Below, piece after piece: positions 29,311 to 46,333 of a stretch of DNA of 64,000 bases. This DNA is from an uncultured Actinomycetes bacterium (lineage in GTDB: Bacteria; Actinomycetota; UBA4738; HRBIN12). The DNA is taken from contig CAVRSI010000015.1 of the NCBI GenBank assembly GCA_963723855.1, forward strand, positions 115,815 to 179,814, in the 5' to 3' direction. Positions within the stretch are counted from its first letter, which is position 1; each line of letters begins with the position of its first letter. The position numbers were made by a program, and so were the translations under genes. The notes under the pieces are model-generated. The model had not been told where the DNA came from. It ran no database searches and was given only the letters and a program-made list of their open reading frames with translations.

Positions 29311-29401
29311 GATCCGGAAGCCTCTCCCGGGAGCCCCTCGCCGTCAACAACTGGTGGACCGGGGGGTGCTCGGATACGCTCGCCGCCGTGGGGGAGCGTC
29401 C

Positions 29402-32400: not shown

Positions 32401-32917
32401 GCGCGCGATCTACGCCGTGGTGCGCGCGGTCGCCGCGGACGCCAACGGCGAACGGCGACAGGCGCTCGTGTTCGCGCGCGAGGCGTTCGACCTGCGCGAC
32501 GCGTTGAGCCACCGGCACGGAGCCGTGAAGTGGTCGTACCCGATCGCCGTCTCGACCGCCCTCGACGTGGGGGATATCGGAGCGGCCGAAGAGCTCGTCT
32601 CGACCGTGGAGGCCTGGAAACCCGGACAAGTCTCGCCGTTGATGCGGGCGATGACCGAGCGGTTCCGCGCATGCCTCGCCCCCGACGAGCCGGAAACTGA
32701 CGCCAGGTTCAAGTCGGCGACCGGCCTGCTTCGGGAGATCGGCGCTCCGTTCCATCGCGCGTGCACGATGCTCGACCACGCCCGATGGCTCGTCGCCAAG
32801 GGGATGGGAGACGCCGAACCGCTCCTCACGGAGGCGAGGGAGATCTTCGAGGAACTCCGGGCCGTCCCCTGGCTTGCAAGGCTCGACGCGATCGCCTCGA
32901 GTCGCGTGAGGACCTGA
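29402..32917 (+). CDS. Double zinc ribbon - class III nucleotide cyclase - AAA/STAND ATPase - TPR protein
   Basis: 4x CxxC; LFADLVGFT, EKFIGDAV, GDLVNTAARVQ; Walker A GIGGIGKS, Walker B VFEDVQWAD; helical repeats. Confidence 0.92.
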   Translation: MTCSSCGTENRGGRKFCSACGAPLSHACPQCGAANDPGDRFCGECGTVLRERTSSQEPRPAPVSERKLVSVLFADLVGFTALSEDRDPEEVRELLSRYFETARTLIERYGGTVEKFIGDAVMAVWGAPVTQEDDAERAVRAGLELVDAVTALGSDVGADLAARAGVATGETAVTLAAEGQGLVAGDLVNTAARVQTAASPGTVFVTDVTRRASDAAIVYEDAGTHKLKGKAEPMALARAMRVIALRGGELRSAGLESPFVGRDREMRLIKDLFHAAADERRVHLLSVVGIGGIGKSRLSWEFLKYIDGLMDTVWWHRGRCLAYGEGITYWALSEMVRSRAGIGEDEPSDSAGRKLDACVGEWITDPEERRWVEPRLAHLLGLEERTSWSRDDLFSGWRLFFERIADRGGPTVMVFEDVQWADDALLDFVDHVAERARDHPLFVVTLSRPELIERRPDWGSGKHRFTSLYLEPLPDDAIDELLRGMVPGLPDDLLVRVRERAEGVPLFAVETVRMLLDKGLLARGESDSYELTGSVDELEVPGSLQGLIAARLDGLPVQERALLQDGAVLGKTFPRQAIAALSPLPDDRLNVLLASLVRKEFLSIQSDPRAPDHGQYGFLQSLVQKVAYDTLAKKDRRARHLAAAENLEHTWTGDEDEIVEVIAAHYTEAYRSAPDEPGAEQVRAKARDTLTRAGRRAQQLAAPRAARGYFLRAAELADTDGERASLLELAGSMASVSATFDEAKGDLEEAEALFRSEGRTHDAARVSARIGGLSFLTSKLDDALVRMTSAFDILKNDEPDEDLAVLAAQLGRLHFFAGHLEEASNAIELALDVAESLWLPETISEAMNTKGLIASARGRPEESLALIRRSLEVALENDTPSAALRAYTNLANEMYERDRYDESTRLDLDAIAMARRLGWSGPEWFARMQIVGHQSLSGAWDDVLSTMREALESDDPGVRAGLEGVALGAMEVASNRGDVDEVNRFFAIWDDYSASDDVQARAIYAVVRAVAADANGERRQALVFAREAFDLRDALSHRHGAVKWSYPIAVSTALDVGDIGAAEELVSTVEAWKPGQVSPLMRAMTERFRACLAPDEPETDARFKSATGLLREIGAPFHRACTMLDHARWLVAKGMGDAEPLLTEAREIFEELRAVPWLARLDAIASSRVRT

Positions 32918-32918
32918 G

Positions 32919-32990
32919 AGCCGGAGCGGGGATTCGAACCCCGGACCTACCACTTACGAGGCGGTTGCTCTACCACTGAGCTACTCCGGC
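32919..32990 (-). tRNA. tRNA-Thr(CGT), CCA not encoded
   Basis: Reverse complement GCCGGAGTAGCTCAGTGGTAGAGCAACCGCCTCGTAAGTGGTAGGTCCGGGGTTCGAATCCCCGCTCCGGCT; upstream TAGACT. Confidence 0.95.
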
Positions 32991-33098
32991 GGCGGTTGCC
33001 GAGTCTACCGAACCGGGTCGCTGGCACCCACGGCACCATCCGCAGGAGGCGGGTGCCCGGCTCGTCGCGGACGGGCCTCCATCGGAGATGATGCGCGC

Positions 33099-35210
33099 AT
33101 GAGCGCGAACGGCGACGTGCGGGTCGGGGGACCCGTGAAGCGGGTGATGGTGGGGACCGATCGCTCCCAGACGGCCGAGCGCGCCGTGGCATGGGCGGCC
33201 GCGTTCGCGGATCGCTACGGAGCCGACCTGCACATCGTCCAGGTCATCCTGCCGGGCAGCCCGACCGACACCGAGTTCGGGGCCGCCGAGGCGACACGCG
33301 CGCGCGGCGCCGCCGACGAGCTGCAGACCTACGCGACCCAGGTCGCCGGCGAGCGCGGGCGGGCCCACGTCGTGATCAACGACGACCCGGCCATGGCGAT
33401 CGTCGACGCAACCGAGGAGCACGCGATCGACGTCCTGGTGGTCGGCAACGCCGGCATGGCCGGCCGCAAGGAGTTCCTGCTGGGGAACGTGCCGAACCGG
33501 ATCAGCCACAACGCGCGATGCACGGTCATCATCGTGAACACGGCGGACGGGCAGGCCGCCGGGACCGCCACCGCCGCGCGTGCGCCTGCCTCCCTGCGCG
33601 CGAGCGCCGCCGAGGTCGAGACGGAGCCGCACCTGATGGCCCGCGGCACCAAGATCGCGACCGTCTTCGCGAAGCATGGGCTGAAGGAGCTCTTCGGCCG
33701 GCCGGACGAGGAGGGCGCGATCGGCCGGGAGCGGCAGGGCAAGCGGCTGCGGGCCGCGCTCGAGGAGCTGGGGCCGACGTTCGCGAAGCTCGGGCAGATC
33801 CTCTCGACGCGTCCCGATCTGCTCCCACCCGAGTACATCAAGGAACTCGCGACGCTCCAGGACAACGTTCCCCCGCTCACCGAGGAGCAGGTCGTCGGCG
33901 TGATGGAGGAGGAACTGGGCGTTCCGTGGGAGGACGTCTTCGATCACATCGAGCCGTTGCCGCTCGCGGCCGGCACGATCGCCGAGGTGCACCGCGCGAC
34001 GCTCGCGAACGGCGAGAAGGTCGTGGTCAAGGTCCAGCGCCCCGACGCCAAGGAGCAGATCGAACAGGACCTGGCGCTGCTCGAGGTCTTCGCCGAGAAG
34101 GTGGGGCACCGGCCAGGGCTGAAGCAGGTGATCGACATGGAGGCGGTGTTCCGCTACCTCTCCGAGTCGCTGCACCGCGAGCTCGACTTCCGCCAGGAGG
34201 CGGGCAACATGCGGCGGATGACGGAGGTGATCGCGCCGTTCCCGCGCCTCCGCGTGCCGGAGGTGCACGGCGACTTCTCGACGTCTCGACTGCTCGTGAT
34301 GCGCGATGTCGCGGGCGGCCCGATCGCGAGCGCGCCCGAAGGGACGCCGCGCAAGGAGGCCGCGCGACAGCTGCTCGAGTCCTTCTACAAGCAGATCATG
34401 GTCGACGGGTTCTTCCACGCCGACCCGCATCCCGGCAACCTGATGTGGCAGCCGGAGGAAGAGCTCCTGTACTTCCTGGACCTGGGCATGGTCGGCGAGG
34501 TGAGCGCCGAGATGCGCGAGCAGATGATGCTGCTGCTGATGGCGTTCTGGCAGGAGGACGTCGGGTTCCTCACCGACATCTCGCTGATGCTGTCCGGTGC
34601 GATCGATCGGAGCGACCTGGACGTCGATGCGTTCAGCGAGGAGATCGGCGAGCTGATGGCCAAGAACCGCGGCGCGTCGCTGAAGGACATCCAGCTCGGA
34701 CCGGTGCTGCAGGAGATGACCGAGATCTCGCTCCGCCACAACGTGCCGCTCCCGGCATCCCTCACGCTCACCGGGAAGTCGCTCGCGCAGATGCAGCTCG
34801 CGGCCGCGCAGCTCGACCCCGAGCTCGACCCGTTCGACGTCGCGGGCAAGTTCCTGATGCGGAACGTCGTCACGGGGATGGGGTCGAAGCTCGACCTGAA
34901 GGCGTTCTTCTATCAGACGCAGAAGATGAAGGTCCGGGCGATGCGGGTGATCGAGGCCGTCGAACGGTTGATCGGCGCGCGTCCGGGTCAGAAGCTGGAG
35001 GTGAACTTCCGCGCCGCATCGCTGGAGACCACGATCCGGCGAGCAGGCAGGCGGCTGGCGCTCGGGTTGACCGCGGGTGCGGCGATCCTGGCGACGTCGC
35101 TCACCGCGCTTTCGACGCGCGTGGCCGGATGGGTCCCGGGCGCCTTCGCCGTGGTCGCCGGCCTGCTGACCCTCGCTCTGCTCGTCGACCTGCTCCGTCG
35201 GAGGGATTGA
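33099..35210 (+). CDS. Universal stress protein - ABC1/UbiB atypical kinase fusion with C-terminal TMs
   Basis: USP: VMVGTDRS, VVGNAGM..FLLGNVPNRI; kinase: LGPTFAKLGQ, VKVQRP, HADPHPGN, DLGMVG; one uninterrupted ORF. Confidence 0.9.
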   Translation: MSANGDVRVGGPVKRVMVGTDRSQTAERAVAWAAAFADRYGADLHIVQVILPGSPTDTEFGAAEATRARGAADELQTYATQVAGERGRAHVVINDDPAMAIVDATEEHAIDVLVVGNAGMAGRKEFLLGNVPNRISHNARCTVIIVNTADGQAAGTATAARAPASLRASAAEVETEPHLMARGTKIATVFAKHGLKELFGRPDEEGAIGRERQGKRLRAALEELGPTFAKLGQILSTRPDLLPPEYIKELATLQDNVPPLTEEQVVGVMEEELGVPWEDVFDHIEPLPLAAGTIAEVHRATLANGEKVVVKVQRPDAKEQIEQDLALLEVFAEKVGHRPGLKQVIDMEAVFRYLSESLHRELDFRQEAGNMRRMTEVIAPFPRLRVPEVHGDFSTSRLLVMRDVAGGPIASAPEGTPRKEAARQLLESFYKQIMVDGFFHADPHPGNLMWQPEEELLYFLDLGMVGEVSAEMREQMMLLLMAFWQEDVGFLTDISLMLSGAIDRSDLDVDAFSEEIGELMAKNRGASLKDIQLGPVLQEMTEISLRHNVPLPASLTLTGKSLAQMQLAAAQLDPELDPFDVAGKFLMRNVVTGMGSKLDLKAFFYQTQKMKVRAMRVIEAVERLIGARPGQKLEVNFRAASLETTIRRAGRRLALGLTAGAAILATSLTALSTRVAGWVPGAFAVVAGLLTLALLVDLLRRRD

Positions 35211-35227
35211 CCTCGTCCGTCGACGGA

Positions 35228-35425
35228 CTAGTCGAGATCGGCCTCGGCGCCCTTCGACGTGATCGTCGTCGGCGCGGGAGCGGGCACCGATCCACCGCCT
35301 TTCTTCACCGAGCGCAGCACGGCCTTCTCGAGCACGAACGCGATCACACCCATGGCCAACCCGACGAACCAGCGCTCGACGCGTCGAAGGCCTTTCGGCT
35401 TCTTCGATCGAGCGGGGCCGGTCAC
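35228..35425 (-). CDS. Small basic hypothetical protein (about 65 aa)
   Basis: GTG at 35425 overlaps the kinase stop; KPKGLRRVERWFVGLAMGVIAFVLEKAV. Confidence 0.55.
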   Translation of the reverse strand: MTGPARSKKPKGLRRVERWFVGLAMGVIAFVLEKAVLRSVKKGGGSVPAPAPTTITSKGAEADLD

Positions 35426-37531
35426 GCCATCGACCCCGACCCGGCCGGCACCGGCAACCGGCCTTCGATCGTGGTCCCCGATCCGGGGCTCGACGTGACC
35501 GTGACCTGCCCATCCAGCGCACCCACCCGGTCGACGATCCCTTGGAGCCCGGTGCCACCGGCGGCCTGCAGCCGGATCGAAGCCGCGGCCGTCGTCGGAC
35601 ACGGTGAAGCACAACGAATGGTCCCGCTCGGCGATCGTCACGGAGGCCGAGGACGCCGAGGCGTACTTCGCGATGTTCTGCATCGCTTCGAGGCACGAGA
35701 AGTACACGGCCGCCTCGACATCTTGCGGGTACCGGGCGATCGCCTCGGCACGGACCTCGACCGGCAGACCCGACTTCCTCGCCTGCGCCTCGAGCGCCGG
35801 GACGAGGCCCTTGTCCGCCAGGAGCGGCGGATAGATGCCCCGGGCCAGGTCGCGCAGGTCCTCCAGTGCCGCGTGCGTCTCGCCCTGGAGCTGGCCGACG
35901 AGCTCTCGCGCCTTCTGCGCGTCCCGCTCGATCAGGCCGTCGGCGAGCTTGAGCTTGACGGCGAGCGCCACCAGCTGCTGCTGCGCGCCGTCGTGGATGT
36001 TCCGCTCGAGCCGCCGGCGCTCCGCGTCCTGCGCGGAGACCAGCCGCTTCTGGGCGGCCTTCAGGTCCTCCAGCCGTGCCTTGAGCGCCTCGGTCAACCG
36101 AACGTTGCTGAGCACGAGGCCGGCCTGGGCGGCCAGATCGGCGATCAGCTTCTCGTCCGACGGCGAGACGGGATCGCTCGACGGCTTGCGGACCGCCAGC
36201 GCGCCCAGGAGCTCGCCCGCCTGCACGACCGGGTACACACGGTCCATGCCCTCGATCTGCGGCACCGACCCGTTCGGGAGCGGGATCGCGCTGCGACCCG
36301 CGACGTCCATCGGCCAGGCGGCGACGTCGCGAAGCTCCCGGTCGACGGCCAGCCACACGTCGGCTCGCTCGGCGCCGATCCCCTCGCCCAGGATCCGCGC
36401 CATCCGCGGCAGCACGTCCTCGTCCGCGTAGGCTCCGCCGACCCGTTCGGAGAACTCCGAGAGCACCTCGTACGGCGTCGCGCGCTTGCCGTAGACCAGA
36501 CGGTTGGCGAACCGCGTGAGCCGCGCGCGCGCCGGTTGGAACGTGAGCGCCACGACCACGGCCGCCACCATCGTCAGGAACGAGTTGTCGCGTCCCAGCC
36601 AGACGCCGACGCCGACCACCACCGCGAGGTAGATCAGCGTGGCGAAGAGCGCGAACGCGCCGTAGATCAGGGTCTTGCGAACGACGACGTCGAGGTCGTA
36701 GAGATGGAACCGCAGGATCGCGATCCCGATGGACAGCGGGAGCAGGAGGAACGCGACCCCGCCGATCAACGCGGTCACTATCGTTTCCTGGTTGTTGAAG
36801 GTGGTGGCGGTGATCCCGACGAGCGCCACCCCGAGACCGAAGACCACCCACTTGATCTGCTGACGCTCCACGCCCGTGGAGCGACGGAACCTGAGGACGA
36901 GCGACGCGACGGACCCCGCGAAGATCCCGGGGAACAACACGGCGATCACCGGATCCAACGACGGGAGCTTCCCGACCGCCGCGACGTACAACGGGTTCGC
37001 GATCGAGATCGATTCGCTCGAGCCCGTCAGCGTCTTCTGGCCCAACGCGAGGTCGATGCCGATCACCGCCACGAACGTCACGCTGAACCACAGGAACGGC
37101 CGCCATCGCGGCGTCGGGACGTGTCCGTCGGGGAACAGCAGCGGCGTGAGGAAGACGACCGGGAAGATCCCGAACAGCCAACCGAAGTTGTTGAGCAGGC
37201 CCATGGCAACGAGCCACCAGCCGCTCTGGCCACGCGTGGCCGCGTACGTGAAGACCTCTCCACCCAGGAACGACAACGCCGTCAGGAAGGACGCCCAGAG
37301 GAACAACAACCCGATCGTGTTGCGGCCATCGCGACTGACGATCAGGGCACCGACGACGCCGAACATCGCGAACGCCACGACGTACGGGACCTGCTGGTCG
37401 AGCGGCTCGCCGTTCGCGTCCACCAGGACCAGCGCCACGGCCGCCACGGCGAGGAAGACAGCGAGGACCACCCACGGCCACCGCGCCGGTCGCGGCGTGA
37501 CGGCCTGAACGGCTTCAGCCGATGACGACAC
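35422..37531 (-). CDS. Multi-TM GAF sensor histidine kinase (HisKA_3; indel near 35560)
   Basis: About 8 TMs, GAF-like region, H box ERRRLERNIHDGAQQQL, EAMQNIAKY, DDGRGF, then GLQGIVDRV..G in the shifted frame. Confidence 0.9.
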
Positions 37532-38792
37532 GGAACACCTCCACCGGCTCTTCGCGACCCTTCACGTACCGCGGGCCGATCGATTCGCACACCACACCGG
37601 GTGCGGCCTTCACCGTCGACGCGGCGGCGACGATCTCGCCACCCGCCGCCTCCGACTGCAACCGCTGGGCGACGTTCACCGCGTCGCCCACGACGGTGTA
37701 CTCCAGCCGGCCGCCGCCCCCGACGGTCCCCGCGATCACGGGACCGGTATTGACGCCGATCCCGACGCCCAGCTCCGGAACATCTGCATCCCAACCCTCG
37801 GCGTTGAGCTCGGTCTGCCGCGCCTGCATCGCGATCGCACAGCGGAGCGCCTGCTCGGCATGGTCCAAGGTGGGCTCCGGCGCGCCGAACACCACCATGA
37901 CCGCGTCGCCCTGGAACTTGTCGATCATGCCTCCGAGGGAGAGCACGACCTCCGCCATCGCGGAGAGATGCTTGCCCACGACCGCGGCGACGTCGCGTGC
38001 CGGGAGCCGTTCGGCGAGCGTCGAGAACCCGCGGATGTCGGAGAAGAGCACGCTCACCTCGACCTCCTGCGGCTCGATCGCCATCTCGGGCTGCGCCGCC
38101 AATCGATCGGCCAGCTGTTGCGGGACGAACGACGCGAGCGTCTTGCGCGACGTCGTCTGCTCCACGACTGCGGCGTGCAGTCGCTTGAACTCGTCGACGA
38201 GACCGGCCCCCGCGCCGTCGCCCGCCATCCGCTGGAACAACCCGGTGACCTGCGAGTCGACGGCCTCTTGCGTCGTTCCGAGGGCATCGGCGATCTCGGC
38301 GTAGCCCAGGCCCTTCGCCATCATGTCCAGCAGCTCCCGCTCGCGCTCGACGGCGTCGCTCCGTCCCGAGAGGCGCTCGGCGATCACGGGATCGACGGTG
38401 CTGCCCCCGGCGTGGACCTCGCGGATCGCGCGGGCGAGCTCATCGCCCTGCGAGATCCGGTCCTTCAACAGGTACGCGAGCCCGCTGTGTCCCTGGCCGA
38501 GCAGCGCGATCGCATACTCCTCGTCGTCGTGCGCCGACAGCACCACCACGCCGGTATCCGGATGGCGTTCGCGGATCGCGTGCGCGCAATCGATGCCCTC
38601 GAGCTGGAACGAGGGCGGCATCTTGATGTCGGTGACGACGACGTCGGGAACGTGTTCGGCCGCGGTCTCCAGCAACGACGGCGCGTCCGCGGCCACCCCG
38701 ACGACCTCGATGTCGTCGTAGGAGTCGAGGAGCGCCCGAACACCTTCGCGGACCAGGACGTTGTCCTCGCCCAGGACCACTCGGATGCTCAT
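37515..38792 (-). CDS. Receiver - LuxR-like HTH - class III adenylyl cyclase fusion
   Basis: REC: GEDNVLVREG, VTDIKMP, VLSAH, YLLK; HTH: ERERELLDMMAKGLGYAEIADAL; cyclase: FSDIRGF, DKFQGDA, EYTVVGDAVNVAQRL. Confidence 0.9.
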   Translation of the reverse strand: MSIRVVLGEDNVLVREGVRALLDSYDDIEVVGVAADAPSLLETAAEHVPDVVVTDIKMPPSFQLEGIDCAHAIRERHPDTGVVVLSAHDDEEYAIALLGQGHSGLAYLLKDRISQGDELARAIREVHAGGSTVDPVIAERLSGRSDAVERERELLDMMAKGLGYAEIADALGTTQEAVDSQVTGLFQRMAGDGAGAGLVDEFKRLHAAVVEQTTSRKTLASFVPQQLADRLAAQPEMAIEPQEVEVSVLFSDIRGFSTLAERLPARDVAAVVGKHLSAMAEVVLSLGGMIDKFQGDAVMVVFGAPEPTLDHAEQALRCAIAMQARQTELNAEGWDADVPELGVGIGVNTGPVIAGTVGGGGRLEYTVVGDAVNVAQRLQSEAAGGEIVAAASTVKAAPGVVCESIGPRYVKGREEPVEVFRVVIG

Positions 38793-38836
38793 GCCGCGTA
38801 CTCCGTCCGCTCGAGACCCCCGTGTACCATCCGCGC

Positions 38837-39506
38837 ATGATCCGCGTGGTGTTCGCCGAGGATAACTACCTGGTCCGCGAGGGTACAGCCGCGCTCCTGG
38901 CCACCTCCGATCAGATCGAGCTCGTGGGGACGGCGACCACCCGCGACGAGTTGCTCGCCGCCGTCGAGCAGTACACCCCCGACGCGGTCCTGACCGATAT
39001 CCGGATGCCGCCCACGGGCACGAACGAAGGGATCGAGGCGGCGAAGCAGATCCGCGCGAGCCATCCGCAGATCGGCGTCGTCGTGCTCTCGCAGTTCGTC
39101 GAGGAGGACTACGCCTACGACCTGCTGAAGGACGGCGCCGGCGGGCTGGGCTACCTGCTGAAGGAGCGGGTCGCCGACGTGGACGAGCTGGTCCGTGCGC
39201 TGGGGGAGGTCGCGCGCGGCGGGTCGGTCCTCGATCCCAAGGTCGTCGAGGCGCTGGTCACGGCGAAGGACCGGATGGCGCACTCGCCCCTGGCACACCT
39301 CACGGACCGCGAGCGCGAGGTGCTGTCGCACATGGCCCAAGGCGAGAACAACGCCGCGATCGCCTCGTCGCTGTTCCTCACCGAGCGGGCCGTCGAGAAG
39401 CACATCAACTCTCTGTTCCACAAGCTCGGCCTCACGGAGGAACCGGACGTGCATCGCCGCGTGATGGCGGTGCTCGCGTTCCTCCGCGAAACCGAGCAGC
39501 GGCTGA
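38837..39506 (+). CDS. NarL/LuxR-family response regulator (true stop probably near 39506, masked by an indel)
   Basis: AEDNYLVREG, TDIRMPP, YLLKERV, LTDREREVL..MAQG..NAAIA, VEKHINSLFHKL; TACCAT 6 nt before the ATG. Confidence 0.9.
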
Positions 39507-39523
39507 CGGTAGCTGTCGGCGGA

Positions 39524-39931
39524 TCATTGCGCCCGGCGCGTGTCGACGATGAACACCGAGCACGGCGCGTGGCGAAGCACCATGTTCGGCACGCTGTCGC
39601 GGACGCGCCATCGGGCGCCCTGCGCGCCGCGGTTCCCGACCACGATCGTGTCCGCGAGCTCCTCCGCCGCCACGTCGCAGATGCGATCGGCCGGCTCCCC
39701 GCGCTCCACGCGTGTGCGGGTCGTGACGCCGGGGAACCGCGTCCGGATCCGCGCCAGGTAATCGTCGGGGTCGGCCGCGCGATCGGGGTCGGCCACCGCG
39801 CGCAGCTCCGACTCGGGCGCGACGTAGAGGACGAGGAGCTCGGCGCCCCGATCGCGCGCCATCCGGGCCGCGTCCTCGACGGCAAGGTCGGCCGCGGCGG
39901 AGGTATCCGTTCCCACCAGGATGGTCTGCAT
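39524..39931 (-). CDS. Universal stress protein
   Basis: ILVGTDTS, GEPADRI, IVVGNRG, SVPNMVLRHAPCSV; AAGGAGG SD. Confidence 0.9.
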   Translation of the reverse strand: MQTILVGTDTSAAADLAVEDAARMARDRGAELLVLYVAPESELRAVADPDRAADPDDYLARIRTRFPGVTTRTRVERGEPADRICDVAAEELADTIVVGNRGAQGARWRVRDSVPNMVLRHAPCSVFIVDTRRAQ

Positions 39932-40011
39932 CTCATGCCTCCTTCGTCGTCCGATCCGAAGCTACTCCGCACTCCGTCCGTGGACGACCCGGCCGCCACC
40001 ACGGTTAGTCG

Positions 40012-40027
40012 GGGGTGCCAGCACCCC
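40012..40027. promoter_or_regulatory. 7-2-7 palindrome GGGGTGC-CA-GCACCCC, putative LuxR/NarL operator
   Basis: Perfect inverted repeat between the divergent USP and M36 genes; the core recurs at 45181-45190. Confidence 0.6.
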
Positions 40028-40137
40028 AGAGTGACGAAGACCTAGGTCGAAGACCGCTCACATCCCCCGCCATTCCGATGACCCGGCCAGGTTCGGGTGC
40101 TAGGTTGCTTCCTCAGTCGACAGGAGGGGGACTCCGC

Positions 40138-42925
40138 ATGCAGCACATCGACGGACGCCGACTGGATCGGCGTCGGATATCCGTGGCTGTGTTCACGACG
40201 GCGATGACGCTCGCCGCGGTCGTGGCAGTCACGGCGCCCGCACGCTCTGCCGGACGCGCGGCGTCCGGGCGCGCGCAGACGAGCCGGGCACGCGGGAACT
40301 TCGACGTCCGCGCCCAGGGAGGCGCCGCGGCGGCACCCAGCGCCCGCATCGCGCGTGCCCGGGTCGAGCTGGCGCGCCGCCTGGGCACCCAGGGCGTGAT
40401 CGAGTCGGATCCGCTGACCGGCACGCTCAGGATGGTCGGGCGACTGGACGGCTACCTGACGGGACGCAGCGCGCGCCCCGCGAAGGCCGTCGCCATCGGC
40501 TACGTCCGATCGAACCTCGCGGCCTTCGGATTGACCAAGGCCGACCTCAAGACGTTCCGCCTGCGACAGGACTACGTGGACATCGCGGGCGTGCACCACA
40601 TCTCGTGGACGCAGGCCAAGCACGGCGTGCCGGTGTTCCACAACGGCCTCCGCGCGAACGTGACGAGCGACGGGCGCCTGGTCAACATCACCGGTTCGCC
40701 GGTGCACGCCATCCGCATCGCATCGGCCGTCCCGGAGCATCACCTCGGACGCGGCGATCAGCGCGGCACGCGTCGACGGGGGTGCGACGGTCGCCGCCGC
40801 GCAGAGCTCAGACTCGGCATCGCTCGTGCTCTTCCCGACGGGACACGGCGCTCGGCTCGCATGGGAGACGTTCACCTGGCCGAACACGCAGCAGCTCGTT
40901 CATGTCGGTCGTGGACGCCCGGAGCGGGTCCGTGCTGTACCGGCAGAGCCTCACGAGCGACGACACCGGAACCGCGACGGCGTGGGAGTTCTACCCGAGC
41001 GACCTGGTCCCCGCCGGCGCGAACGTGGCGAACCCCGTCACGTTCCCGGTGGTCGACGGCACGAAGCTGAGCGGCGACAACGCGCACGTGTGGGCGGACG
41101 TGAAGGACAACAACAAGCCGGACCCGGGCGAGGAGATCCCCGCCGTGTCGGGAACGGATTGGAGCATGCCGGCGATCCTTGACACGACGAACGCCGCGCA
41201 GAACTGCACCACGTCGCGTCCCTGCACGTGGGACAAGAACGTCCCGTTCAGCTGGCAAGCGAACATGGCGCAGAACGCCGCTCAGGTCATGTACTACCTG
41301 AACAAGTACCACGACCACCTGGCCGGAGCGCCGTACGGCTTCACGGCAGCGGCGGGCAACTTCGAGGCGGCGGGAGGCGACCCGGTCCTGGGCAACGCGA
41401 TGGACGGCGCCAACTCGGGCAACGGCCTCCCGGACAAGAACCACTTCAACAACGCCAACATGAGCACGCCACCGGACGGCAAGTCGCCGACGATGCAGAT
41501 GTACCTGTTCCGCGCGCGGACAAGGGCTGCCCGCCTTGCCGAGCGTGAACGGCGGCGACGACGCCGAGGTCGTCTACCACGAGTACACGCACGGCCTGTC
41601 GGGCCGGCTCGTCCTGTACCCGGACGGCACGTCCGGCCTGACGACCCAGCAGGCGCAACTCGATGGGCGAGGGATGGAGCGACTGGTACGCAGAGGACTT
41701 CCTGAACAACCAGGGGTTCAAGCCGGACACGGCCGCGATCGGCGACGTCGTGATGGGCGCCATCACGTTCGCCGGGCTCCTTCGGTCCCAGCCGGTCGAC
41801 TGCCCGGTGGGCGCGCCGGCTCCGTGCGGCGGTACCCAGGGCGCGGGCCCCGGCGGCTACACGTACGGGGACTTCGGCAAGGTTGCCGGCTTCCCCGAGG
41901 TGCATGCCGACGGTGAGATCTGGCTGGAGACGCTCTGGCAGATCCGTCAGGCGCTCGGCCCGGCCATCGCCGAGACGCTCGTGACACGCGCGATGGAGCT
42001 GTCGCCGGGCGGGCCGTCCTACCTCGACATGCGGAACTCCATCATCCAGGCCGACCTGGTGAACTTCGGCGGGGCCAACGAGTCGGCGCTCTGGTCGATC
42101 TTCGCCGAGCGGGGCATGGGGTACTTCGCCGCGTCGACGAGCGACAGCGTGAACCCGATCGAGGACTTCTCGATCCCGCCGGACTGCACCACGTCCGATT
42201 GCGCGACGATCTCCGGCACGGTGAAGGACAAGACGTCCGGAAAGCCGGCCGCCGGAGTGACGGTGTCGGTGCCCGGGTTGGACTCGGGATTCGCGTCGGA
42301 TCTGGCGGACACGACCGACTCGGCGGGGCACTTCTCGATCGCCAACGTGCCGTTCCACACGTACCACCTGTTCTCCGATCGGAGGAGGGGGCTACGAGCC
42401 GTTCCTCGTCGGGAACGTCCCGGTCACGGGAGACGTGAGCCTCGACATCGAAGGTGATCCGCGACTGGGCGTCGATCGAGGGCGGAGCGAAGGTCGGCAA
42501 GTTCACGCCGCCCGACTACGGTCCGTTCGGGTGCGGTCCGGAGCAGTTGGTCGACCTGAACCTCGGTTCGGGCTGGGGATCCGACGCGGTGGGCAGCACC
42601 TCGGGCAGCCACGTCAAGGGCCCCCGCAAGGTCGTCATCAAGCTGCCGAAGGCCGTGGACGTCACGAGCTTCGCGCGTCGCCTCGTTCGGCGCGTGCGGC
42701 GACGGACCCGATGCCGGCGTGAAGAAGTTCAAGATCGAGACCAAGACGAACGGCGGCCAGTGGATCACCGCGTTCGTGGGCAAGGCGCCCAGCAACGACA
42801 AGTTGATGACGTACGTGCCGCATGCCGGCAAGGCCAACGTCCGGTTCGTGCGGTTCACCATGCTGTCGAACCACGGCGACCCGCTCTTCATGGACGTGAT
42901 GGAGCTCTCGGTCCGCGGCAAGTAG
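40138..42925 (+). CDS. Secreted M36 (fungalysin-family) metallopeptidase with propeptide and C-terminal beta domains (several indels)
   Basis: Signal peptide, FTP-like propeptide, NNANMSTPPDG.SP.MQMY, HEYTH, MGEGWSD, EVHADGEIW. Confidence 0.88.
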
Positions 42926-42944
42926 CGGATCGGGCGTCGAACGA

Positions 42945-42974
42945 CGAGAGGGCCGGCATCCGCCGGCCCTCTCG
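42945..42974. terminator. Hairpin between convergent genes (putative bidirectional terminator)
   Basis: 13-bp stem CGAGAGGGCCGGC / GCCGGCCCTCTCG, loop ATCC. Confidence 0.75.
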
Positions 42975-43000
42975 CTCGTTTCCGGTCTCCGAGTGTTGGG

Positions 43001-44644
43001 TCAGATCCGCGCGAAGAAGATGAATTGCAGGTTCCGCGGGTGTGGCAGCGGCTTCCCGCTGAAGCGATCGGTCACCACGCTCATGTCCGTCCACACCACG
43101 TTCGCGTGGCCATCCGCGCCGTAGTCGAGGCCGATGTAGTCACCATTGAACGTTGCGCATTTCCTGCATCCGTCGGCGTTGGATTGGAAGAACAGCGAGT
43201 TGGTCGGGTCCGACGGTGCCACGCTCACGGTCGATTTCGTGAACAGACCAGGCGCACCCACCGAGAGCGACGCGTTGTACAGATCAGGGTTCATCGGGTC
43301 ACGGTCGTTGTAGACCACCCCCAGCTGTCCGGTCGCTGGGTTCACGTCGGCCCAGGGGAACCATTGGTCTCGGGGACCCGTGTCCACTCCGACCGGAGCG
43401 CTCCATGTCGCGCCGCCGTCGTTGGAAACCACCACGTAGACGTTCATGTCGGTGACCGGATCGGGGACGTCGTGCGTACCGGCTCGATTGTCGGCGAACA
43501 CGACGTACAACGTCCCGGTCGCCCCGATGGCGACGTTGCCGGCGGAATTCAGCCGGACTTGGTATCCGTTCACGGTCTGCCGACCGTCCACGTTGCGTGC
43601 CAGATCGTGCTTGCCATCCTCGAGGTCCGCCGCATCGACGGGTGCGCTCCACGTGGCCCCGCCATCCAACGACTTCACGACCAGGTAGCTGCTCTCCGTC
43701 TCCTTGCCCGTCTCCCAGACAGCCGAGTTCTGGCCGTTCTCGAAGGCAACGTAGACCGTACCGTCGGCCGCGATCGCGCCGACCGAGTACTGGTCCTCGT
43801 CGCATTGGCCCGCCGGCCCGTCCGTCTGGAACGTGCAGAACGCTGCGCTCCCCGAGATCTCATGCGCCGTGCTCCACGTGAGGCCGCCGTCGTCGCTGTG
43901 GGACTCCCAGATCGGAGATTCCGCGACCGAACCGTCGTGTGAGAGGAAGCGGCTCCAGGTCAGATACACACGGCCGTAGTACGGAGAGCTGGGGTTGGTG
44001 TCCGCGACCATCCAATCCTTGTCGTTGAAGACCTGCGTGGGATCCTCGTCCGCACCGTGACCCTGATACACGACGACCGGCGTCGCCCACTTCACGCCCC
44101 CATCCGTCGAGATCGACACGACAACGTCACCCGACGTTGCCTGCCCGTCGTTGCGGATGACGTAGTTGAGCGACGAGTGCAGGACGTTACCGCTCTTCGG
44201 CTCGAACACCGTGACGGGATCGCTCCCCGTCCGACGCTTGGTGAGGACCGACATGTTGCCCGTCTGCCAGGTGAGTCCGCCGTCGAACGTCGTGTAGAAC
44301 TCGTCGCAACACGAGTCGTAGTCGTTCGAGCTCGCCACCATGTGGAGCGGATCAGTCGGGTCGACCGCGATATGCGGCTCGTTGTTCGGCGCTTTCGTAT
44401 CGCAATCGAGCTGGGTATTCGCGGCTCCTGCCGTGGTAGCGGCTGTGCAATCGATGACGGAGGCCAGGTGATCCGCCGACACGGACGATCCTTGCGTGCG
44501 GACCCCTTCGATCGATCGGTGAACACGACTGCTCAGATGTGCACCTTCAAGGAAGCTGTTGGCTTTACCGGCCCCCGAAGCGGTAGGCACCGCCACCAGC
44601 ATGAGCACGCACACGGTCGCCACGATCGTCGAAACGCGTTTCAC
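43001..44644 (-). CDS. Secreted BNR/Asp-box beta-propeller protein (sialidase-like)
   Basis: Signal peptide; five Asp boxes (TFDGGLTW, STDGGVKW, SDDGGLTW, SLDGGATW, SNDGGATW); GDYIG near the C-terminus. Confidence 0.85.
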   Translation of the reverse strand: MKRVSTIVATVCVLMLVAVPTASGAGKANSFLEGAHLSSRVHRSIEGVRTQGSSVSADHLASVIDCTAATTAGAANTQLDCDTKAPNNEPHIAVDPTDPLHMVASSNDYDSCCDEFYTTFDGGLTWQTGNMSVLTKRRTGSDPVTVFEPKSGNVLHSSLNYVIRNDGQATSGDVVVSISTDGGVKWATPVVVYQGHGADEDPTQVFNDKDWMVADTNPSSPYYGRVYLTWSRFLSHDGSVAESPIWESHSDDGGLTWSTAHEISGSAAFCTFQTDGPAGQCDEDQYSVGAIAADGTVYVAFENGQNSAVWETGKETESSYLVVKSLDGGATWSAPVDAADLEDGKHDLARNVDGRQTVNGYQVRLNSAGNVAIGATGTLYVVFADNRAGTHDVPDPVTDMNVYVVVSNDGGATWSAPVGVDTGPRDQWFPWADVNPATGQLGVVYNDRDPMNPDLYNASLSVGAPGLFTKSTVSVAPSDPTNSLFFQSNADGCRKCATFNGDYIGLDYGADGHANVVWTDMSVVTDRFSGKPLPHPRNLQFIFFARI

Positions 44645-44751
44645 CGGACCCCCTCTCTCGGCGGCAACGCCACCCGCCCGATCACGCTCCGCGGCGCGGA
44701 ACGCGCACCGGCCGCATCATCACATGACGCCGAAGAGGCCGTCGAGGGAGG

Positions 44752-45139
44752 TCAGGCGGCGCCGGACGCGGCGGCCCAGGCGGCCTCGAGCCGGTCCGGG
44801 CCGAAGACGGCCTTCGGGATGTACGCGGCGGCGCCGCACTCCGCGGCGCGCGGCGCGTACTCGTCCTCCTCGTACGTCGAGAGCAGGAGCACGACCACGG
44901 CGTTCGATCCGTCCCCGGCACCGGCGAGGATCTGACGAGTCGCATCCAACCCGTTGATGCCCGGGAGGTTCACGTCCATGAGGACCAGGTCCGGGCGTGA
45001 GCTCGGCGGCCATGGCGACGGAGTCCTCGCCCGACTCGGCCTCGCCCACGACGTCGAAGCCCTCCGTGGCCTCCACCACCATGCGGGCGGCCATCCGGAA
45101 GGGCTCTTGGTCGTCGACGATCAACACCCGAACGGTCAT
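44752..45139 (-). CDS. Stand-alone receiver-domain protein (indel near 44995)
   Basis: VLIVDDQEPF, MDVNLPGING, LLSTY, AYIPK. Confidence 0.85.
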
Positions 45140-45176
45140 GGATCGTCAGCGTCCCACCGCGACCTGATCGAACGCC

Positions 45177-45194
45177 AGTAGTGCCAGCACCACT
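45177..45194. promoter_or_regulatory. Palindrome AGTAGTGC-CA-GCACCACT, putative operator
   Basis: Same GTGCCAGCAC core as 40015-40024; about 40 bp upstream of the receiver gene. Confidence 0.55.
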
Positions 45195-45217: not shown

Positions 45218-46333
45218 CTACGCTGCCAGCTCGGCCAGACGGAGGAACGCGCGTTCGAGCAGGAGGCGTGGATTGAGGTTGAGGTCCTCCGCCAGGTCCG
45301 CCCGCGCCTGCTCGATCCCCGCGAGCCCGCGCGCGGCCCGCACGACGCTCAGCCGGTCGTCCGGCACCAGATCGGGGTTCATGAAGAGCTCGGGACCGCC
45401 GCCGATCGCGGAGCGCGATCCGGTCGCGGAGGAGCGACGACACCGCGAGCAGCTCCCAGTCGATGTAGTCGCGCTCGGCTCGCCGTTCGCGCCGCTGGAA
45501 CCGCGTCTCGATGCGTTTGATGGCCCCGCGATACGCGTCCTCGGGGCGGCCCTTCTCGTCGACGAACGGCGCGAGCGCCGTCTCGAGCTCGGCCTTGAGG
45601 CCCTTCTTGTACTCGGCCGCGGCGGCGAGCACGACGTCGGCCGCCTCGAGCGCCCCCGTGGAGCCCTCCGAGGCGAGCGAGACGGCGTGCGCGGCCGCCT
45701 CGCGGAACCGCAGCCCATCGGCCGCGGTGGCCAAGTCGCCGCGCGCGGCCCAGGTTGCCGCCCGCGAGCCGCGCGGCCAGGCGGGCCCGCGTCTCGTCGA
45801 CCCCTTCGCCGACGAGCACGTCCACGACGAACGTCTCGGACAGCGCCGTGAACGTGACGACGTGGCACCGGGACAGGACCGTCTCGGGCAGCTCGTGCGC
45901 TCGAGCCGACATCAAGCAGCAAGACGGAGTCGGCGGGAGGTTCCTCGAGCACCTTGAGGAGCGTGTCCGCCGCGGCCGGCGACAAGCGATCGGCCTCACG
46001 GATCAGGAACACCTTGCGGCCGGGCTCGGGAGCGGTCCGATAGGCGGGGGTCCAGACCTCCTCGCGGATGGTGTCCACGTGGATGTCCCGGCCCTCGGGC
46101 TCGACCAGGAACACGTTGGGGTGATGATCGGCGAGCGCGAGCCGACAGGTCCGGCACGCTCCGCAGCCGCCGTCCGGGCACAGGAGCGCGGCGACGAACG
46201 CCCGGGCGGCGATCGACTTGCCCGAGCCCTCGGGCCCCGCGAACACGTAGGCGTGATGCGGACGCTCGGCGGCGCCGGTCAGGAACGCCATCGCGGCATC
46301 CTGCCCGGGTACCTGATCGAGGACGACGCTCAC
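45218..46333 (-). CDS. holB: DNA polymerase III delta-prime subunit (frameshifted)
   Basis: HAYVFAGPEGSGK, C4 zinc motif CPDGGCGACRTC, HPNV, LLKVLEEPP, LPETVLSRC. Confidence 0.92.
   Translation of the reverse strand: MSVVLDQVPGQDAAMAFLTGAAERPHHAYVFAGPEGSGKSIAARAFVAALLCPDGGCGACRTCRLALADHHPNVFLVEPEGRDIHVDTIREEVWTPAYRTAPEPGRKVFLIREADRLSPAAADTLLKVLEEPPADSVLLLDVGSSARAARDGPVPVPRRHVHGAVRDVRRGRARRRRGRRDAGPPGRAARGRQPGPRAATWPPRPMGCGSARRPRTPSRSPRRAPRGRSRRPTSCSPPRPSTRRASRPSSRRRSRRSSTRRAAPRTRIAGPSNASRRGSSGANGEPSATTSTGSCSRCRRSSATGSRSAIGGGPELFMNPDLVPDDRLSVVRAARGLAGIEQARADLAEDLNLNPRLLLERAFLRLAELAA

What the first reader, a model, noticed from the sequence alone, without database searches (positions are those of the whole stretch)
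33015..45194. Candidate undescribed signalling system: HK, REC-HTH-cyclase, LuxR regulator, USP-ABC1 kinase and USP
Seen: within 7 kb lie a USP-ABC1 kinase, a small basic protein, a multi-TM GAF HisKA_3 kinase co-transcribed with a REC-HTH-adenylyl cyclase, a divergent LuxR regulator and a USP whose N-terminus resembles the fused one (VGTDRS versus VGTDTS). A receiver-only gene lies at 45 kb, and a shared palindrome precedes three of these units. Known: in Mycobacterium the tRNA-Thr(CGT) gene lies next to holB, so this 12 kb looks like an accessory block; mycobacterial USP Rv1636 binds cAMP. Inference: one sensor phosphorylates two paralogous receivers, giving both a transcriptional output and a cAMP output that could be read by USP domains gating the atypical kinase.
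Basis: partly seen in the sequence, partly recalled or inferred. Interest (0 to 1): 0.8.

Follow-up and report, generated by a model that had tools for sequence, protein, structure and literature searches.

The report
Conserved multi-kinase, cAMP-producing two-component hub
An uncultured soil actinobacterium carries a deeply conserved gene cluster in which membrane sensor kinases appear to feed three receiver proteins, one a gene regulator and one fused to a cAMP-making enzyme, and the same DNA palindrome sits in front of three neighbouring stress and signalling genes.

Summary
Every listed gene and the shared palindrome are at the stated places. In this assembly the kinase, the LuxR regulator and the receiver-only gene are each broken by one extra base. 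The essential holB gene is broken the same way, so these are most likely assembly errors.

The block is not a recent accessory insert. The cyclase-regulator and LuxR lie divergent and adjacent in 74 of 76 related loci, with USP, small membrane protein, USP-ABC1 and 0-6 paralogous kinases (median 4) around them.

The palindrome GGTGCTGGCACC (2 mismatches or fewer) precedes the receiver-only gene in 23/23 loci, USP in 60/72 and USP-ABC1 in 27/62. It precedes control genes in 0/79, 0/79 and 0/13.

The paralogous kinases keep a nearly invariant receiver-docking surface while their membrane sensors diverge. The cyclase-regulator arose once by duplication of the LuxR type. It recurs beside LuxR and the receiver-only gene in 4 of 8 loci examined from other orders, where no USP genes are nearby.

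Best reading: a many-kinase, three-receiver NarL-type hub with a transcriptional output and a cAMP output.

That USP domains read the cAMP is untested. It is weakened by 20 matches to ordinary cAMP-binding domains in the genome.

This is a new variant of a known kind.

The parts
32918..32990 (-). tRNA-Thr(CGT), left border of the block
   Evidence: ARAGORN. Rfam tRNA at 72.4 bits. The tRNA sits directly upstream of USP-ABC1 in relatives too.
33017..33028 (+). Operator-like palindrome A (GTCGCTGGCACC, 2 mismatches), 82 nt before the USP-ABC1 start codon
   Evidence: The same motif (2 mismatches or fewer, same orientation) precedes USP-ABC1 in 27 of 62 related loci.
33099..35210 (+). USP-ABC1/UbiB-type atypical kinase, 703 aa, with two C-terminal transmembrane helices
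   Evidence: Pfam Usp at 89.8 bits and ABC1 at 215.6 bits. Hydropathy. The G-2x-G-9x-G-N stretch of the USP domain is at least 95% conserved in 34 orthologues.
35228..35425 (-). Small single-pass membrane protein (about 65 aa); its start codon overlaps the kinase stop codon
   Evidence: Present downstream in 54 of 56 loci. No Pfam family. Atlas hits are hypothetical Actinomycetota proteins, with a weak DUF4235 lead.
35422..37531 (-). Polytopic HisKA_3 histidine kinase (702 aa if one extra base near 35568 is ignored): about 10 transmembrane helices, a small GAF-like module, DHp and ATPase domain
   Evidence: Pfam. One extra base relative to 5 of 5 relatives and to one Illumina contig (place 35568). 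Model of an orthologue that is 91% identical. The kinase core is DesK-like.
37515..38792 (-). Response regulator with REC, a NarL-like three-helix HTH, a long helix and a class III adenylyl cyclase domain (425 aa)
   Evidence: Pfam. PDB alignments to cyclases and to VraR/DevR/NarL. D55, S86, K110, D252, D296, K292, D370, N373 and R377 are invariant in 22 sequences. Model with mean pLDDT 76.7.
38837..39500 (+). Divergent NarL/LuxR-type response regulator (about 220 aa). A conserved TACCAT box lies 6 nt before its ATG, suggesting a leaderless mRNA. The stop codon is lost in this assembly through one extra base.
39524..39931 (-). Single-domain universal stress protein, 135 aa
   Evidence: Usp at 98.6 bits. 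PDB relatives are Rv2623, MSMEG_3811 and Rv1636. Adjacent to LuxR in 62 of 73 loci.
40014..40025 (-). Operator-like palindrome B (exact; reads GGTGCTGGCACC in the USP direction), 94 nt before the USP start. It lies in the intergenic region shared with the divergent M36 peptidase gene.
   Evidence: Present with 2 mismatches or fewer in 60 of 72 loci. No Rfam family there.
44752..45139 (-). Receiver-only response regulator (128 aa in relatives), split here by one extra base near 44992
   Evidence: The intact orthologue scores Response_reg 81.2 bits. It lies next to LuxR and the cyclase-regulator in other orders too.
45180..45191 (-). Operator-like palindrome C (1 mismatch), 52 nt before the receiver-only start. 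In relatives it extends to an 18-bp inverted repeat.
   Evidence: Present with 2 mismatches or fewer in 23 of 23 loci, and with 1 or fewer in 21 of 23. Consensus.

Best explanation
This is a vertically inherited signalling hub of an uncultured soil Actinomycetota lineage.

Proposed mechanism:
- Several paralogous polytopic HisKA_3 kinases have divergent membrane sensors but an almost identical receiver-docking (DHp) surface. One lies in this cluster, three more are orphans elsewhere in this genome, and relatives have up to six in the cluster.
- These kinases are inferred to phosphorylate a fixed set of three receivers:
  - a NarL/LuxR-type transcription factor;
  - its ancient paralogue, in which REC and HTH are followed by a long helix and a class III adenylyl cyclase;
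  - a single-domain receiver.
- Phosphorylation is inferred to dimerise the cyclase-regulator, so that its catalytic domains pair and make cAMP.
- Phosphorylation is inferred to make the LuxR regulator bind a 12-18 bp inverted repeat (core GGTGC-TG-GCACC). That repeat sits at fixed distances before the USP, USP-ABC1 and receiver-only genes, which would make them a small local regulon.
- The induced receiver-only protein would act as a feedback element, such as a phosphate sink.
- The small membrane protein is translationally coupled to the kinase and is a likely accessory subunit.

Shown here: gene content, synteny, the conserved motif, catalytic and phospho-acceptor residues, kinase docking-surface conservation, and the single origin of the fusion.

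Inferred: who phosphorylates whom, who binds the palindrome, and what the signal is.

The frameshifts in the window are taken as assembly errors.
For: Synteny:
- In 80 loci from public MAGs: LuxR divergent and adjacent 74/76, USP 62/73, kinase directly downstream 62/69, small membrane protein 54/56, USP-ABC1 49/56, receiver-only within 8 kb 22/43. Kinases per full 17-kb locus range from 0 to 6, median 4.
- The first 20 loci gave the same picture.

Motif:
- Forward matches with 2 mismatches or fewer within 160 nt upstream: receiver-only 23/23, USP 60/72, USP-ABC1 27/62.
- Controls: LuxR 0/79, cyclase-regulator 0/79, holB 0/13.
- Distances are fixed and the orientation is the same throughout.
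- The genome-wide scan gave 27 hits with 1 mismatch or fewer. Two are cluster sites (USP and receiver-only; the USP-ABC1 site has 2 mismatches and falls outside this scan). Most of the rest read like coding sequence by eye; gene positions were not checked.

Kinases:
- 165 cluster kinases were aligned. The mean top-residue frequency is 0.77 in the DHp against 0.46 in the membrane part. The H-box helix and second helix are at least 90% conserved.
- Only 4 of 13 HisKA_3 domains in this genome carry that signature, and one more carries it partly.
- The three extra ones have no NarL-type regulator within 6 kb.

Cyclase-regulator:
- REC helix 1 is invariant across 22 sequences from the window's order (8 of them from loci in families other than f1). 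D55/S86/K110 and the six cyclase residues are invariant.
- Its best PDB relatives are Cya2, CyaB and bPAC.
- The model shows REC, three HTH helices, a long helix and the cyclase fold.

Origin and age:
- The REC-HTH of the fusion forms one clade (100/99), grouping with LuxR (85/80).
- Full-length relatives occur in 40 of 301 genomes sampled over the phylum, in 29 of 198 genera.
- In 4 of 8 distant loci the fusion again lies with LuxR and the receiver-only gene; three of the four also carry kinases of this family, from one to four.

Natural block loss:
- G008 (same genus, 98% complete) lacks the receiver-only gene, USP, LuxR, cyclase-regulator and kinase together. It keeps the small protein and USP-ABC1.

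Assembly errors:
- holB is read in 4 frame pieces against intact 370-378 aa relatives.
- Illumina contigs lack the extra bases at 35568, 40736, 40898, 41517, 42378, 42450 and 42675.
- Intact orthologues exist.
Against: - No phosphotransfer, DNA-binding or cyclase assay exists.
- The LuxR-palindrome link rests only on adjacency, on an invariant recognition helix and on the recalled habit of NarL-type dimers to bind inverted repeats.
- G008 keeps a motif-like site before USP-ABC1 although it has no LuxR orthologue.
- Fewer than half of the USP-ABC1 upstream regions carry the motif (27/62).
- The motif's central TG always points the same way, which a symmetric dimer does not explain.
- USP-ABC1 and the cyclase-regulator are not strictly co-distributed. 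Of 41 genomes, 26 have both, 3 the cyclase only, 7 ABC1 only and 5 neither (these counts include the unpublished G009, G029 and G037).
- The two receivers differ at 4 of about 14 helix-1 positions, so they may have separate kinases.
- The RNA-library contigs do not prove transcription.
- The frameshifts could in principle be real in this one strain.
Confidence: 0.6

Rival explanations
1. One reading: a coherent feed-forward loop. The same kinase signal induces USP and USP-ABC1 through LuxR and raises cAMP through the cyclase-regulator. cAMP is then bound by the USP domains, which gate the ABC1 kinase/ATPase.
For: - It shares all the evidence for the hub.
- G7/G99 of the small USP align with G10/G114 of cAMP-bound MSMEG_3811. 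Those are the residues whose mutation abolishes cAMP binding in Rv1636 (passages of PMC11107214).
- The fused USP keeps a fully conserved nucleotide-binding stretch.
- A USP domain fused to a kinase is known to bind a cyclic nucleotide: KdpD with c-di-AMP (PMC4686210, search listing).
- In the phylum sample, 29 genomes have both proteins, against 40 with the cyclase-regulator and 37 with USP-ABC1 out of 301. This is confounded by kinship, because both are concentrated in two lineages.
Against: - The conserved glycines are generic to ATP-binding USPs.
- In the small USP the third motif glycine is Asp in the window and only 50-80% conserved.
- USP-ABC1 persists where the cyclase-regulator is deleted (G008) and is found without it in 7 of 41 genomes.
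- In other orders the cyclase core has no USP gene within 8-10 kb.
- In family f18 the two genes lie on different contigs.
Confidence: 0.15
2. The palindrome is not the LuxR operator. It is bound by another factor: the HTH of the cyclase-regulator itself, an unlinked regulator, or it forms part of an alternative-sigma promoter.
For: - The HTH of the cyclase-regulator is strongly conserved, with 14 invariant positions between residues 155 and 186. It folds as three helices.
- The motif keeps a direction-specific centre in all three gene classes.
- A motif-like site persists in G008, which has no LuxR.
Against: - The cyclase-regulator HTH scores below the GerE cut-off, at 21 against 23.5 bits.
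- It carries invariant acidic residues E176 and D179 in the recognition helix, where LuxR has R and E.
- No sigma-54 gene was found in this 76% complete genome.
- The half-site spacing does not fit a CRP-type site (recalled as GTG-N8-CAC, compared by eye).
- The motif is confined to this cluster genome-wide.
- The motif fades in families where the cluster is rearranged.
Confidence: 0.25
3. In this particular genome the block is decaying. The frameshifts in the kinase, LuxR, receiver-only and M36 genes are real pseudogenising mutations.
For: - The extra base in the kinase is unique among 6 aligned sequences.
- It does not lie in a long homopolymer.
- One close relative (G008) really has lost the module.
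Against: - The essential holB gene and the tmk gene carry the same kind of break in the same window.
- Every break is a single extra base.
- Illumina-based contigs of close strains lack those bases.
- The nearest relative, G005, has breaks at other positions in the same genes.
- Many related records are long-read MAGs (the sequencing platform is recalled, not shown by a call).
Confidence: 0.1
4. The genes are neighbours without any functional link.
For: - No experimental link exists.
- USP-ABC1 and the two-component genes are separable in some genomes.
Against: - The gene order is kept in about 80 species-level genomes.
- A shared cis element precedes three units.
- The core re-associates in other orders despite rearrangement.
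- The cyclase-regulator, kinase and small protein genes overlap, which suggests translational coupling.
Confidence: 0.03

Closest known systems
DosR/DevR with DosS/DosT of Mycobacterium tuberculosis
   Same: - A NarL-type regulator served by more than one HisKA_3 kinase with GAF-type modules.
- That its regulon is rich in USP genes, and that the operator is palindromic, are recalled.
- DosR dimerises through REC and helix 10 of the DNA-binding domain (PMC13486717, abstract).
- DevR is among the best PDB relatives of LuxR, at E 1.8e-24.
- Rv2623 is the best PDB relative of the USP.
   Different: - The kinases here are polytopic membrane proteins with about 10 helices and one small GAF-like module, not soluble tandem-GAF haem sensors.
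- VraR scores better than DevR.
- Residues in the recognition helix differ from those of DevR.
- There is a second receiver with a cyclase output and a third receiver-only protein.
- The regulon seen here is local, with three targets.
Receiver-cyclase fusions: cyanobacterial CyaC, Myxococcus CyaA/CyaB (both recalled) and Dictyostelium ACR (PMC3009899, search listing)
   Same: A receiver domain controls a class III cyclase, so a phosphorelay gives a cAMP output.
   Different: - Here a complete NarL-like REC plus HTH module lies between the phospho-acceptor and the cyclase.
- The fusion is a stand-alone 425-aa regulator encoded next to its transcription-factor paralogue.
- No paper describing this three-part architecture was found in the searches. 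Databases carry only automatic names.
Mycobacterial cyclase-ATPase-TPR-LuxR proteins (Rv0386 type)
   Same: A class III cyclase and a LuxR-type HTH in one polypeptide. A census of actinobacterial LuxR proteins calls these CHD+LuxR (PMC3466318, passages).
   Different: - The domain order is opposite, and there is no receiver.
- That census describes the sub-family as restricted to Mycobacterium.
- The gene left of the tRNA (29144-32917) is of that general type, with Zn-ribbon, cyclase, AAA_16 and TPR, but without a detected HTH.
cAMP-binding USP Rv1636/MSMEG_3811, and the c-di-AMP-binding USP domain of KdpD
   Same: - The single-domain USP aligns over its whole length with MSMEG_3811 at E 2e-07, including G10 and G114.
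- KdpD shows that a USP domain fused to a kinase can be a cyclic-nucleotide sensor (PMC4686210, listing).
   Different: - Binding was not tested.
- The motif of the small USP is imperfect.
- The fused partner is an ABC1/UbiB-type kinase, not a histidine kinase.
- No paper linking USP and ABC1 was found.
DesK-type and LiaFSR/VraSR-type intramembrane-sensing HisKA_3 systems
   Same: - The kinase core is closest to DesK and VraS by sequence and by fold.
- The sensor part is all-membrane, without a large outside loop.
- A small membrane protein is encoded with the kinase. The comparison with LiaF is recalled.
   Different: - There are ten helices rather than two to five.
- There is an extra cytoplasmic GAF-like module.
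- The kinases form paralogue arrays and the outputs are branched.

Membership tests
NarL/FixJ (LuxR-type) response regulators | Receiver domain with acidic pocket, phospho-acceptor Asp, conserved Ser/Thr and Lys | tested here: met
   - LuxR scores Response_reg 57.9 bits and the cyclase-regulator 62.7 bits.
- D55, S86 and K110 are invariant in 22 cyclase-regulators.
- The equivalent residues are seen in LuxR and the receiver-only protein.
NarL/FixJ (LuxR-type) response regulators | C-terminal GerE-type helix-turn-helix | tested here: met
   LuxR scores GerE 50.9 bits against a cut-off of 23.5. It aligns to VraR, DevR and NarL through residue 201.
NarL/FixJ-type HTH in the cyclase-regulator | GerE-type helix-turn-helix above the family threshold | tested here: inconclusive
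   - GerE scores 21.0 bits, below the 23.5 cut-off.
- phmmer nevertheless aligns residues 3-192 to VraR and DevR.
- The model shows helices 144-159, 164-171 and 175-190.
- The recognition helix carries invariant E176 and D179.
Class III adenylyl cyclases | Catalytic domain with two metal-binding Asp, a Lys/Asp substrate pair and an Asn/Arg transition-state pair (the roles of these residues are recalled) | tested here: met
   - Guanylate_cyc scores 84 bits against a cut-off of 21.9.
- D252, D296, K292, D370, N373 and R377 are invariant in 22 sequences.
- The domain aligns to Cya2, CyaB and bPAC.
- Enzyme activity cannot be tested here.
HisKA_3 histidine kinases | H-box dimerisation domain plus a complete HATPase_c domain | tested here: inconclusive
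   - HisKA_3 scores 50.3 bits.
- In the window HATPase_c scores only 24.0 bits against a cut-off of 26.4, because the frame shifts before the G2 box.
- The intact orthologue scores 38.3 bits over profile positions 11-109 of 111.
GAF domain | Recognisable GAF fold or profile match | tested here: inconclusive
   - Pfam GAF gives E 0.0019 at 19.2 bits, below the 22.4 cut-off, and covers only the last 40 profile positions.
- A DosT GAF chain matches at E 0.0028.
- The model has a helix, 4-5 strands and a helix at residues 353-456.
- Foldseek hits are dominated by the kinase core.
Universal stress proteins, nucleotide-binding subclass | Usp profile match and the G-2x-G-9x-G-(S/T) motif (motif recalled) | tested here: inconclusive
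   - Usp scores 89.8 bits for the fused domain and 98.6 bits for the small USP.
- The fused domain has G-2x-G-9x-G-N, at least 95% conserved.
- In the small USP the third Gly is Asp in the window and only 50-80% conserved.
cAMP-binding USPs (Rv1636/MSMEG_3811) | Glycines that contact cAMP (G10 and G113/G114), and measured cAMP binding | not testable with these tools
   The glycines are present, as G7 and G99 in the small USP. They are shared with ATP-binding USPs. Binding needs an experiment.
ABC1/UbiB atypical kinases | ABC1 domain above threshold | tested here: met
   ABC1 scores 215.6 bits against a cut-off of 22.9, covering profile positions 2-237 of 244.
CRP-type cAMP receptor site | Half-sites spaced as GTG-N8-CAC (recalled) | tested here: not met
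   In the palindrome read, the GTG and CAC triplets are 4 or 10 nt apart, not 8.
Sigma-54 promoter (the motif contains TGGCAC) | rpoN present and a GC element one helical turn downstream | tested here: not met
   There is no Sigma54_DBD match in this 76% complete genome. No conserved GC at the required spacing appears in the site alignments.
Recently acquired genomic island | Deviant composition, mobility genes, patchy presence among close relatives | tested here: not met
   - GC is 0.66-0.70 across the block, like the flanks.
- No integrase or transposase appeared among the Pfam results.
- Synteny is kept over about 80 species-level genomes.
- One relative, G008, lacks part of the block by deletion.

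The most novel reading that the evidence does not exclude
In these soil actinobacteria one phosphorelay would drive a built-in feed-forward circuit.
- A NarL-type regulator switches on a USP, a USP-gated UbiB-like membrane kinase and a feedback receiver.
- Its fused paralogue makes the cAMP that those USP domains bind.
- The atypical kinase would then act only when both the transcriptional and the second-messenger arms agree.

A bolder variant is that the cyclase-regulator still binds DNA through its conserved HTH and so makes cAMP at the promoter.
Probability: 0.15. Interest if true: 0.8.

Novelty: new variant of a known kind. Interest (0 to 1): 0.6.

Why it matters
The parts all belong to known families. 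Their conserved wiring has not been described, and it occurs in an abundant lineage that has no cultured member among the records seen:
- 6356 proteins related to the cyclase-regulator at E <= 1e-20, carrying only automatic names;
- 134 confirmed loci in species-level genomes, of which all 80 listed are MAGs.

The cluster offers:
- a defined case of many kinases feeding few receivers, with a readable docking signature;
- a natural example of a transcription-factor response regulator turned into a second-messenger enzyme while it stays beside its paralogue;
- a short, testable regulon with a clear operator;
- a lead into the function of bacterial ABC1/UbiB kinases and USP domains, both poorly understood.

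It also shows that frame breaks in long-read MAGs can pass for pseudogenes.

Tried and rejected
- **Shared motif TACTCCGTCCG.** It occurs at 38799 and 39970. The window has 21 matches against 31 expected. It is not conserved in relatives, and part of it is the ribosome-binding site of the cyclase-regulator gene. Rejected.
- **A fourth palindrome-like site at 29091-29102.** It lies inside the S51-like gene on the other strand and is not conserved. Rejected.
- **RNA element in the USP leader.** No Rfam family besides the tRNA was found. The USP-ABC1 sites break the flank pairing that a hairpin would need.
- **Sigma-70 consensus scan.** It found 0 promoters. This is uninformative at 70% GC.
- **Covariation between the LuxR recognition helix and the operator.** The helix is essentially invariant: one conservative change in the recognition helix proper (3 loci) and I/M or A variants in the following helix, none tracking the motif state. 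No test was possible.
- **RNA-library contigs.** Four runs from four studies were laid on the block. X5 and X6 gave the same figures and may be one data set. The contigs cover most genes at 90-99% likeness, but as contigs they show neither transcription nor starts. They were used only for the table of extra bases.
- **Foldseek search with the kinase model.** It returned the kinase core only and says nothing on the GAF module or the membrane domain.
- **Complex prediction** was not used. No pair was both open and decisive, because USP-USP and REC-REC pairs would pass through likeness to solved dimers.
- **Literature.** PMC2447327 holds no text on receivers in the part that is held. The searches found no description of the REC-HTH-cyclase or of USP-ABC1 fusions. 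This covers only the held library. Supplementary files were not requested.

Full report
**What is in the window**

The window is 70% GC with even composition. It lies in a 3.3-Mb MAG of 55 contigs that is 76% complete. I called genes from third-position GC and Pfam. From left to right the block reads:
- tRNA-Thr(cgt), 32918-32990(-);
- USP-ABC1, 33099-35210(+);
- a small single-pass membrane protein, 35228-35425(-);
- a polytopic HisKA_3 kinase, 35422-37531(-);
- a REC-HTH-class III cyclase, 37515-38792(-);
- a divergent LuxR-type regulator starting at 38837(+);
- a USP, 39524-39931(-);
- an M36 peptidase and a BNR-repeat protein;
- a receiver-only gene, 44752-45139(-);
- holB, tmk and topA.

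Left of the tRNA lies a Zn-ribbon-cyclase-AAA_16-TPR protein.

**Frame breaks**

The kinase ORF runs on into the frame of the small protein, because its G2 box lies in another frame. Against five relatives the window has one extra base. An Illumina-derived contig of a close strain lacks a base at 35568.

Other breaks of the same kind:
- LuxR has no stop codon until 40045. Relatives end 220 aa in, and the window is one base longer at that point.
- The receiver-only gene is read in two frames.
- The M36 gene is read in several frames.
- holB, an essential gene, is read in four frame pieces against intact 370-378 aa relatives.
- The tmk-containing gene is also split.

Intact orthologues of the kinase (699-702 aa, full HATPase_c) exist. 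I therefore read these breaks as assembly errors, not decay. The odds are roughly nine to one.

**Conservation**

A full-length relative of the cyclase-regulator (E <= 1e-160) was found in 29 of 41 genomes of the order, and the LuxR gene lies beside it wherever both matches were listed. Twenty loci and then 80 loci from public genomes, all uncultured Actinomycetota MAGs, gave these counts:

| Feature | Loci |
|---|---|
| LuxR divergent and adjacent | 74/76 |
| USP next to LuxR | 62/73 |
| Kinase directly downstream | 62/69 |
| Small membrane protein | 54/56 |
| USP-ABC1 | 49/56 |
| Receiver-only within 8 kb | 22/43 |
| Kinases per full locus | 0-6, median 4 |

The flank topA-tmk-holB-receiver is kept as well. 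This is vertical inheritance, not an island.

One genome of the same genus (G008, 98% complete) has lost the receiver-only gene, USP, LuxR, the cyclase-regulator and the kinase as one block. It keeps the small protein and USP-ABC1.

**The palindrome**

In the window the 12-mer occurs at 33017-33028, 40014-40025 and 45180-45191. In the direction of the downstream gene it always reads GGTGCTGGCACC or a near variant. Forward matches with at most 2 mismatches within 160 nt upstream were found as follows:

| Upstream of | Loci |
|---|---|
| Receiver-only | 23/23 |
| USP | 60/72 |
| USP-ABC1 | 27/62 |
| LuxR (control) | 0/79 |
| Cyclase-regulator (control) | 0/79 |
| holB (control) | 0/13 |

Further points:
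- Distances to the start codon are fixed for each gene class: about 95, 72 and 60 nt in relatives, and 94, 82 and 52 nt in the window.
- Before the receiver-only gene the repeat extends to 18 bp.
- The scan of this genome at one mismatch or fewer gave 27 hits. Two of them are the cluster's USP and receiver-only sites. Most of the others read like coding sequence, judged by eye only.
- It is not a known RNA family.
- It is not a sigma-54 promoter, since no rpoN was found.
- It does not have CRP-type spacing.
- A conserved TACCAT box six bases before the LuxR ATG suggests a leaderless mRNA.

**The proteins**

Cyclase-regulator:
- In 22 sequences from the window's order, 8 of them from families other than f1, the receiver's first helix and D55/S86/K110 are invariant. 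So are the six canonical cyclase residues with the Lys/Asp pair typical of adenylyl cyclases.
- The HTH region is conserved but atypical. It scores 21 bits, with E176 and D179 in the recognition helix.
- The model (pLDDT 76.7) shows REC, three HTH helices, a long helix at 196-220 and the cyclase fold.
- In DosR the helix after the HTH helps dimerisation (PMC13486717, abstract). That is the route by which receiver phosphorylation could pair the cyclase domains. This last step is inference.

Kinase:
- The orthologue model has ten membrane helices, a small helix-strands-helix module and a DesK-like core.
- Across 165 cluster kinases the docking helices are nearly invariant while the membrane part diverges.
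- Of 13 HisKA_3 domains in this genome, only four share that signature fully. Three of those are orphans.

Receivers and USPs:
- The receiver-only protein is a canonical receiver of 128 aa.
- USP-ABC1 has an intact ABC1 domain and a fully conserved nucleotide-binding stretch. The motif of the small USP is imperfect.

**Origin and range**

The REC-HTH part of the fusion forms one clade (100/99) that groups with the LuxR sequences (85/80). The next relative is another regulator of this genome. This indicates one ancient duplication and fusion.

Full-length relatives occur in 40 of 301 genomes sampled across the phylum, in 29 of 198 genera. They include other orders at 44-50% identity. In four of eight such distant loci the fusion again lies with LuxR and the receiver-only gene; three of these four also carry one to four kinases of this family. 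USP, USP-ABC1 and the palindrome are not nearby there.

So the old core is three receivers plus a kinase array. The USP genes and their operator are a later addition in this order.

USP-ABC1 orthologues occur in 37 of the same 301 genomes, and 29 genomes have both. Both proteins are concentrated in two lineages, so kinship confounds the overlap.

**The cAMP-USP idea**

In favour: the glycines that contact cAMP in MSMEG_3811 are conserved.

Against:
- Those glycines are generic to nucleotide-binding USPs.
- The genome holds 20 cNMP-binding domain matches, 30 cyclase domain matches and 11 Usp matches.
- USP-ABC1 survives without the cyclase-regulator.

I keep the idea as the most novel reading, at about 15%.

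**Verdict**

This is a real, strongly conserved and undescribed arrangement of known signalling parts. It is a multi-kinase, three-receiver NarL-type hub with a transcriptional arm and a cAMP arm. Its island idea is not supported, and its cAMP-USP step remains open.

Counts include unpublished genomes, which are named in Tried and rejected.

Noticed in passing
window 45218-46333 (holB), 46343-48395 (tmk-containing gene), 40139-42925 (M36 peptidase): The assembly carries many single extra bases. holB is read in four frame pieces. The tmk-containing gene is split in two. The M36 gene is split in at least four, and Illumina contigs lack a base at 40736, 40898, 41517, 42378, 42450 and 42675. Any 'pseudogene' call in this MAG needs short-read support.
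   Followed up: partly
window 29144-32917 (+): A 1257-aa protein with a double zinc ribbon, a class III cyclase, AAA_16 and TPR repeats. It is a STAND-like cyclase directly left of the tRNA and is syntenic in relatives. No GerE HTH was detected.
   Followed up: partly
window 12287-12532 (-) and the whole genome: A cNMP-binding protein lies 20 kb from the block. Genome-wide there are 20 cNMP-binding, 30 cyclase and 11 Usp domain matches in 3.3 Mb. This is a very cAMP-rich signalling repertoire.
   Followed up: no
window 40139-42925 (+); L015, L017, L019, L041: An M36 (fungalysin-like) peptidase with an FTP propeptide and a CarboxypepD_reg domain sits beside the cluster. In relatives it is often present in one or two copies. 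In the window it shares the palindrome-bearing intergenic region with USP.
   Followed up: partly
L019 / L041 (G001): A tandem duplication of the cyclase-regulator, LuxR, USP and M36 unit on one contig.
   Followed up: no
L020 8214-9302 and seven more loci (L023, L024, L071, L073, L082, L090, L095): No kinase match lies directly after the cyclase-regulator gene in these loci. In L020, the one locus whose ORFs were read, the roughly 780-bp gap holds a polytopic membrane ORF of about 240 aa with no kinase domains.
   Followed up: partly
L113 (G008): A natural block deletion removes the receiver-only gene through the kinase. M36, the small membrane protein and USP-ABC1 remain between holB and the tRNA. 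A motif-like site (GGTGCTGGCAGC) is still present before USP-ABC1.
   Followed up: yes
G000:C17:2471 (+) and C17:6174 (-), outside the window: Two near-identical copies of a motif-like stretch are each followed by a TAGAAT-type box. They may be promoters of a repeated unit.
   Followed up: no
window 63166-63504 (+): A further USP-like domain lies inside a 623-aa open frame at the right end of the window.
   Followed up: no
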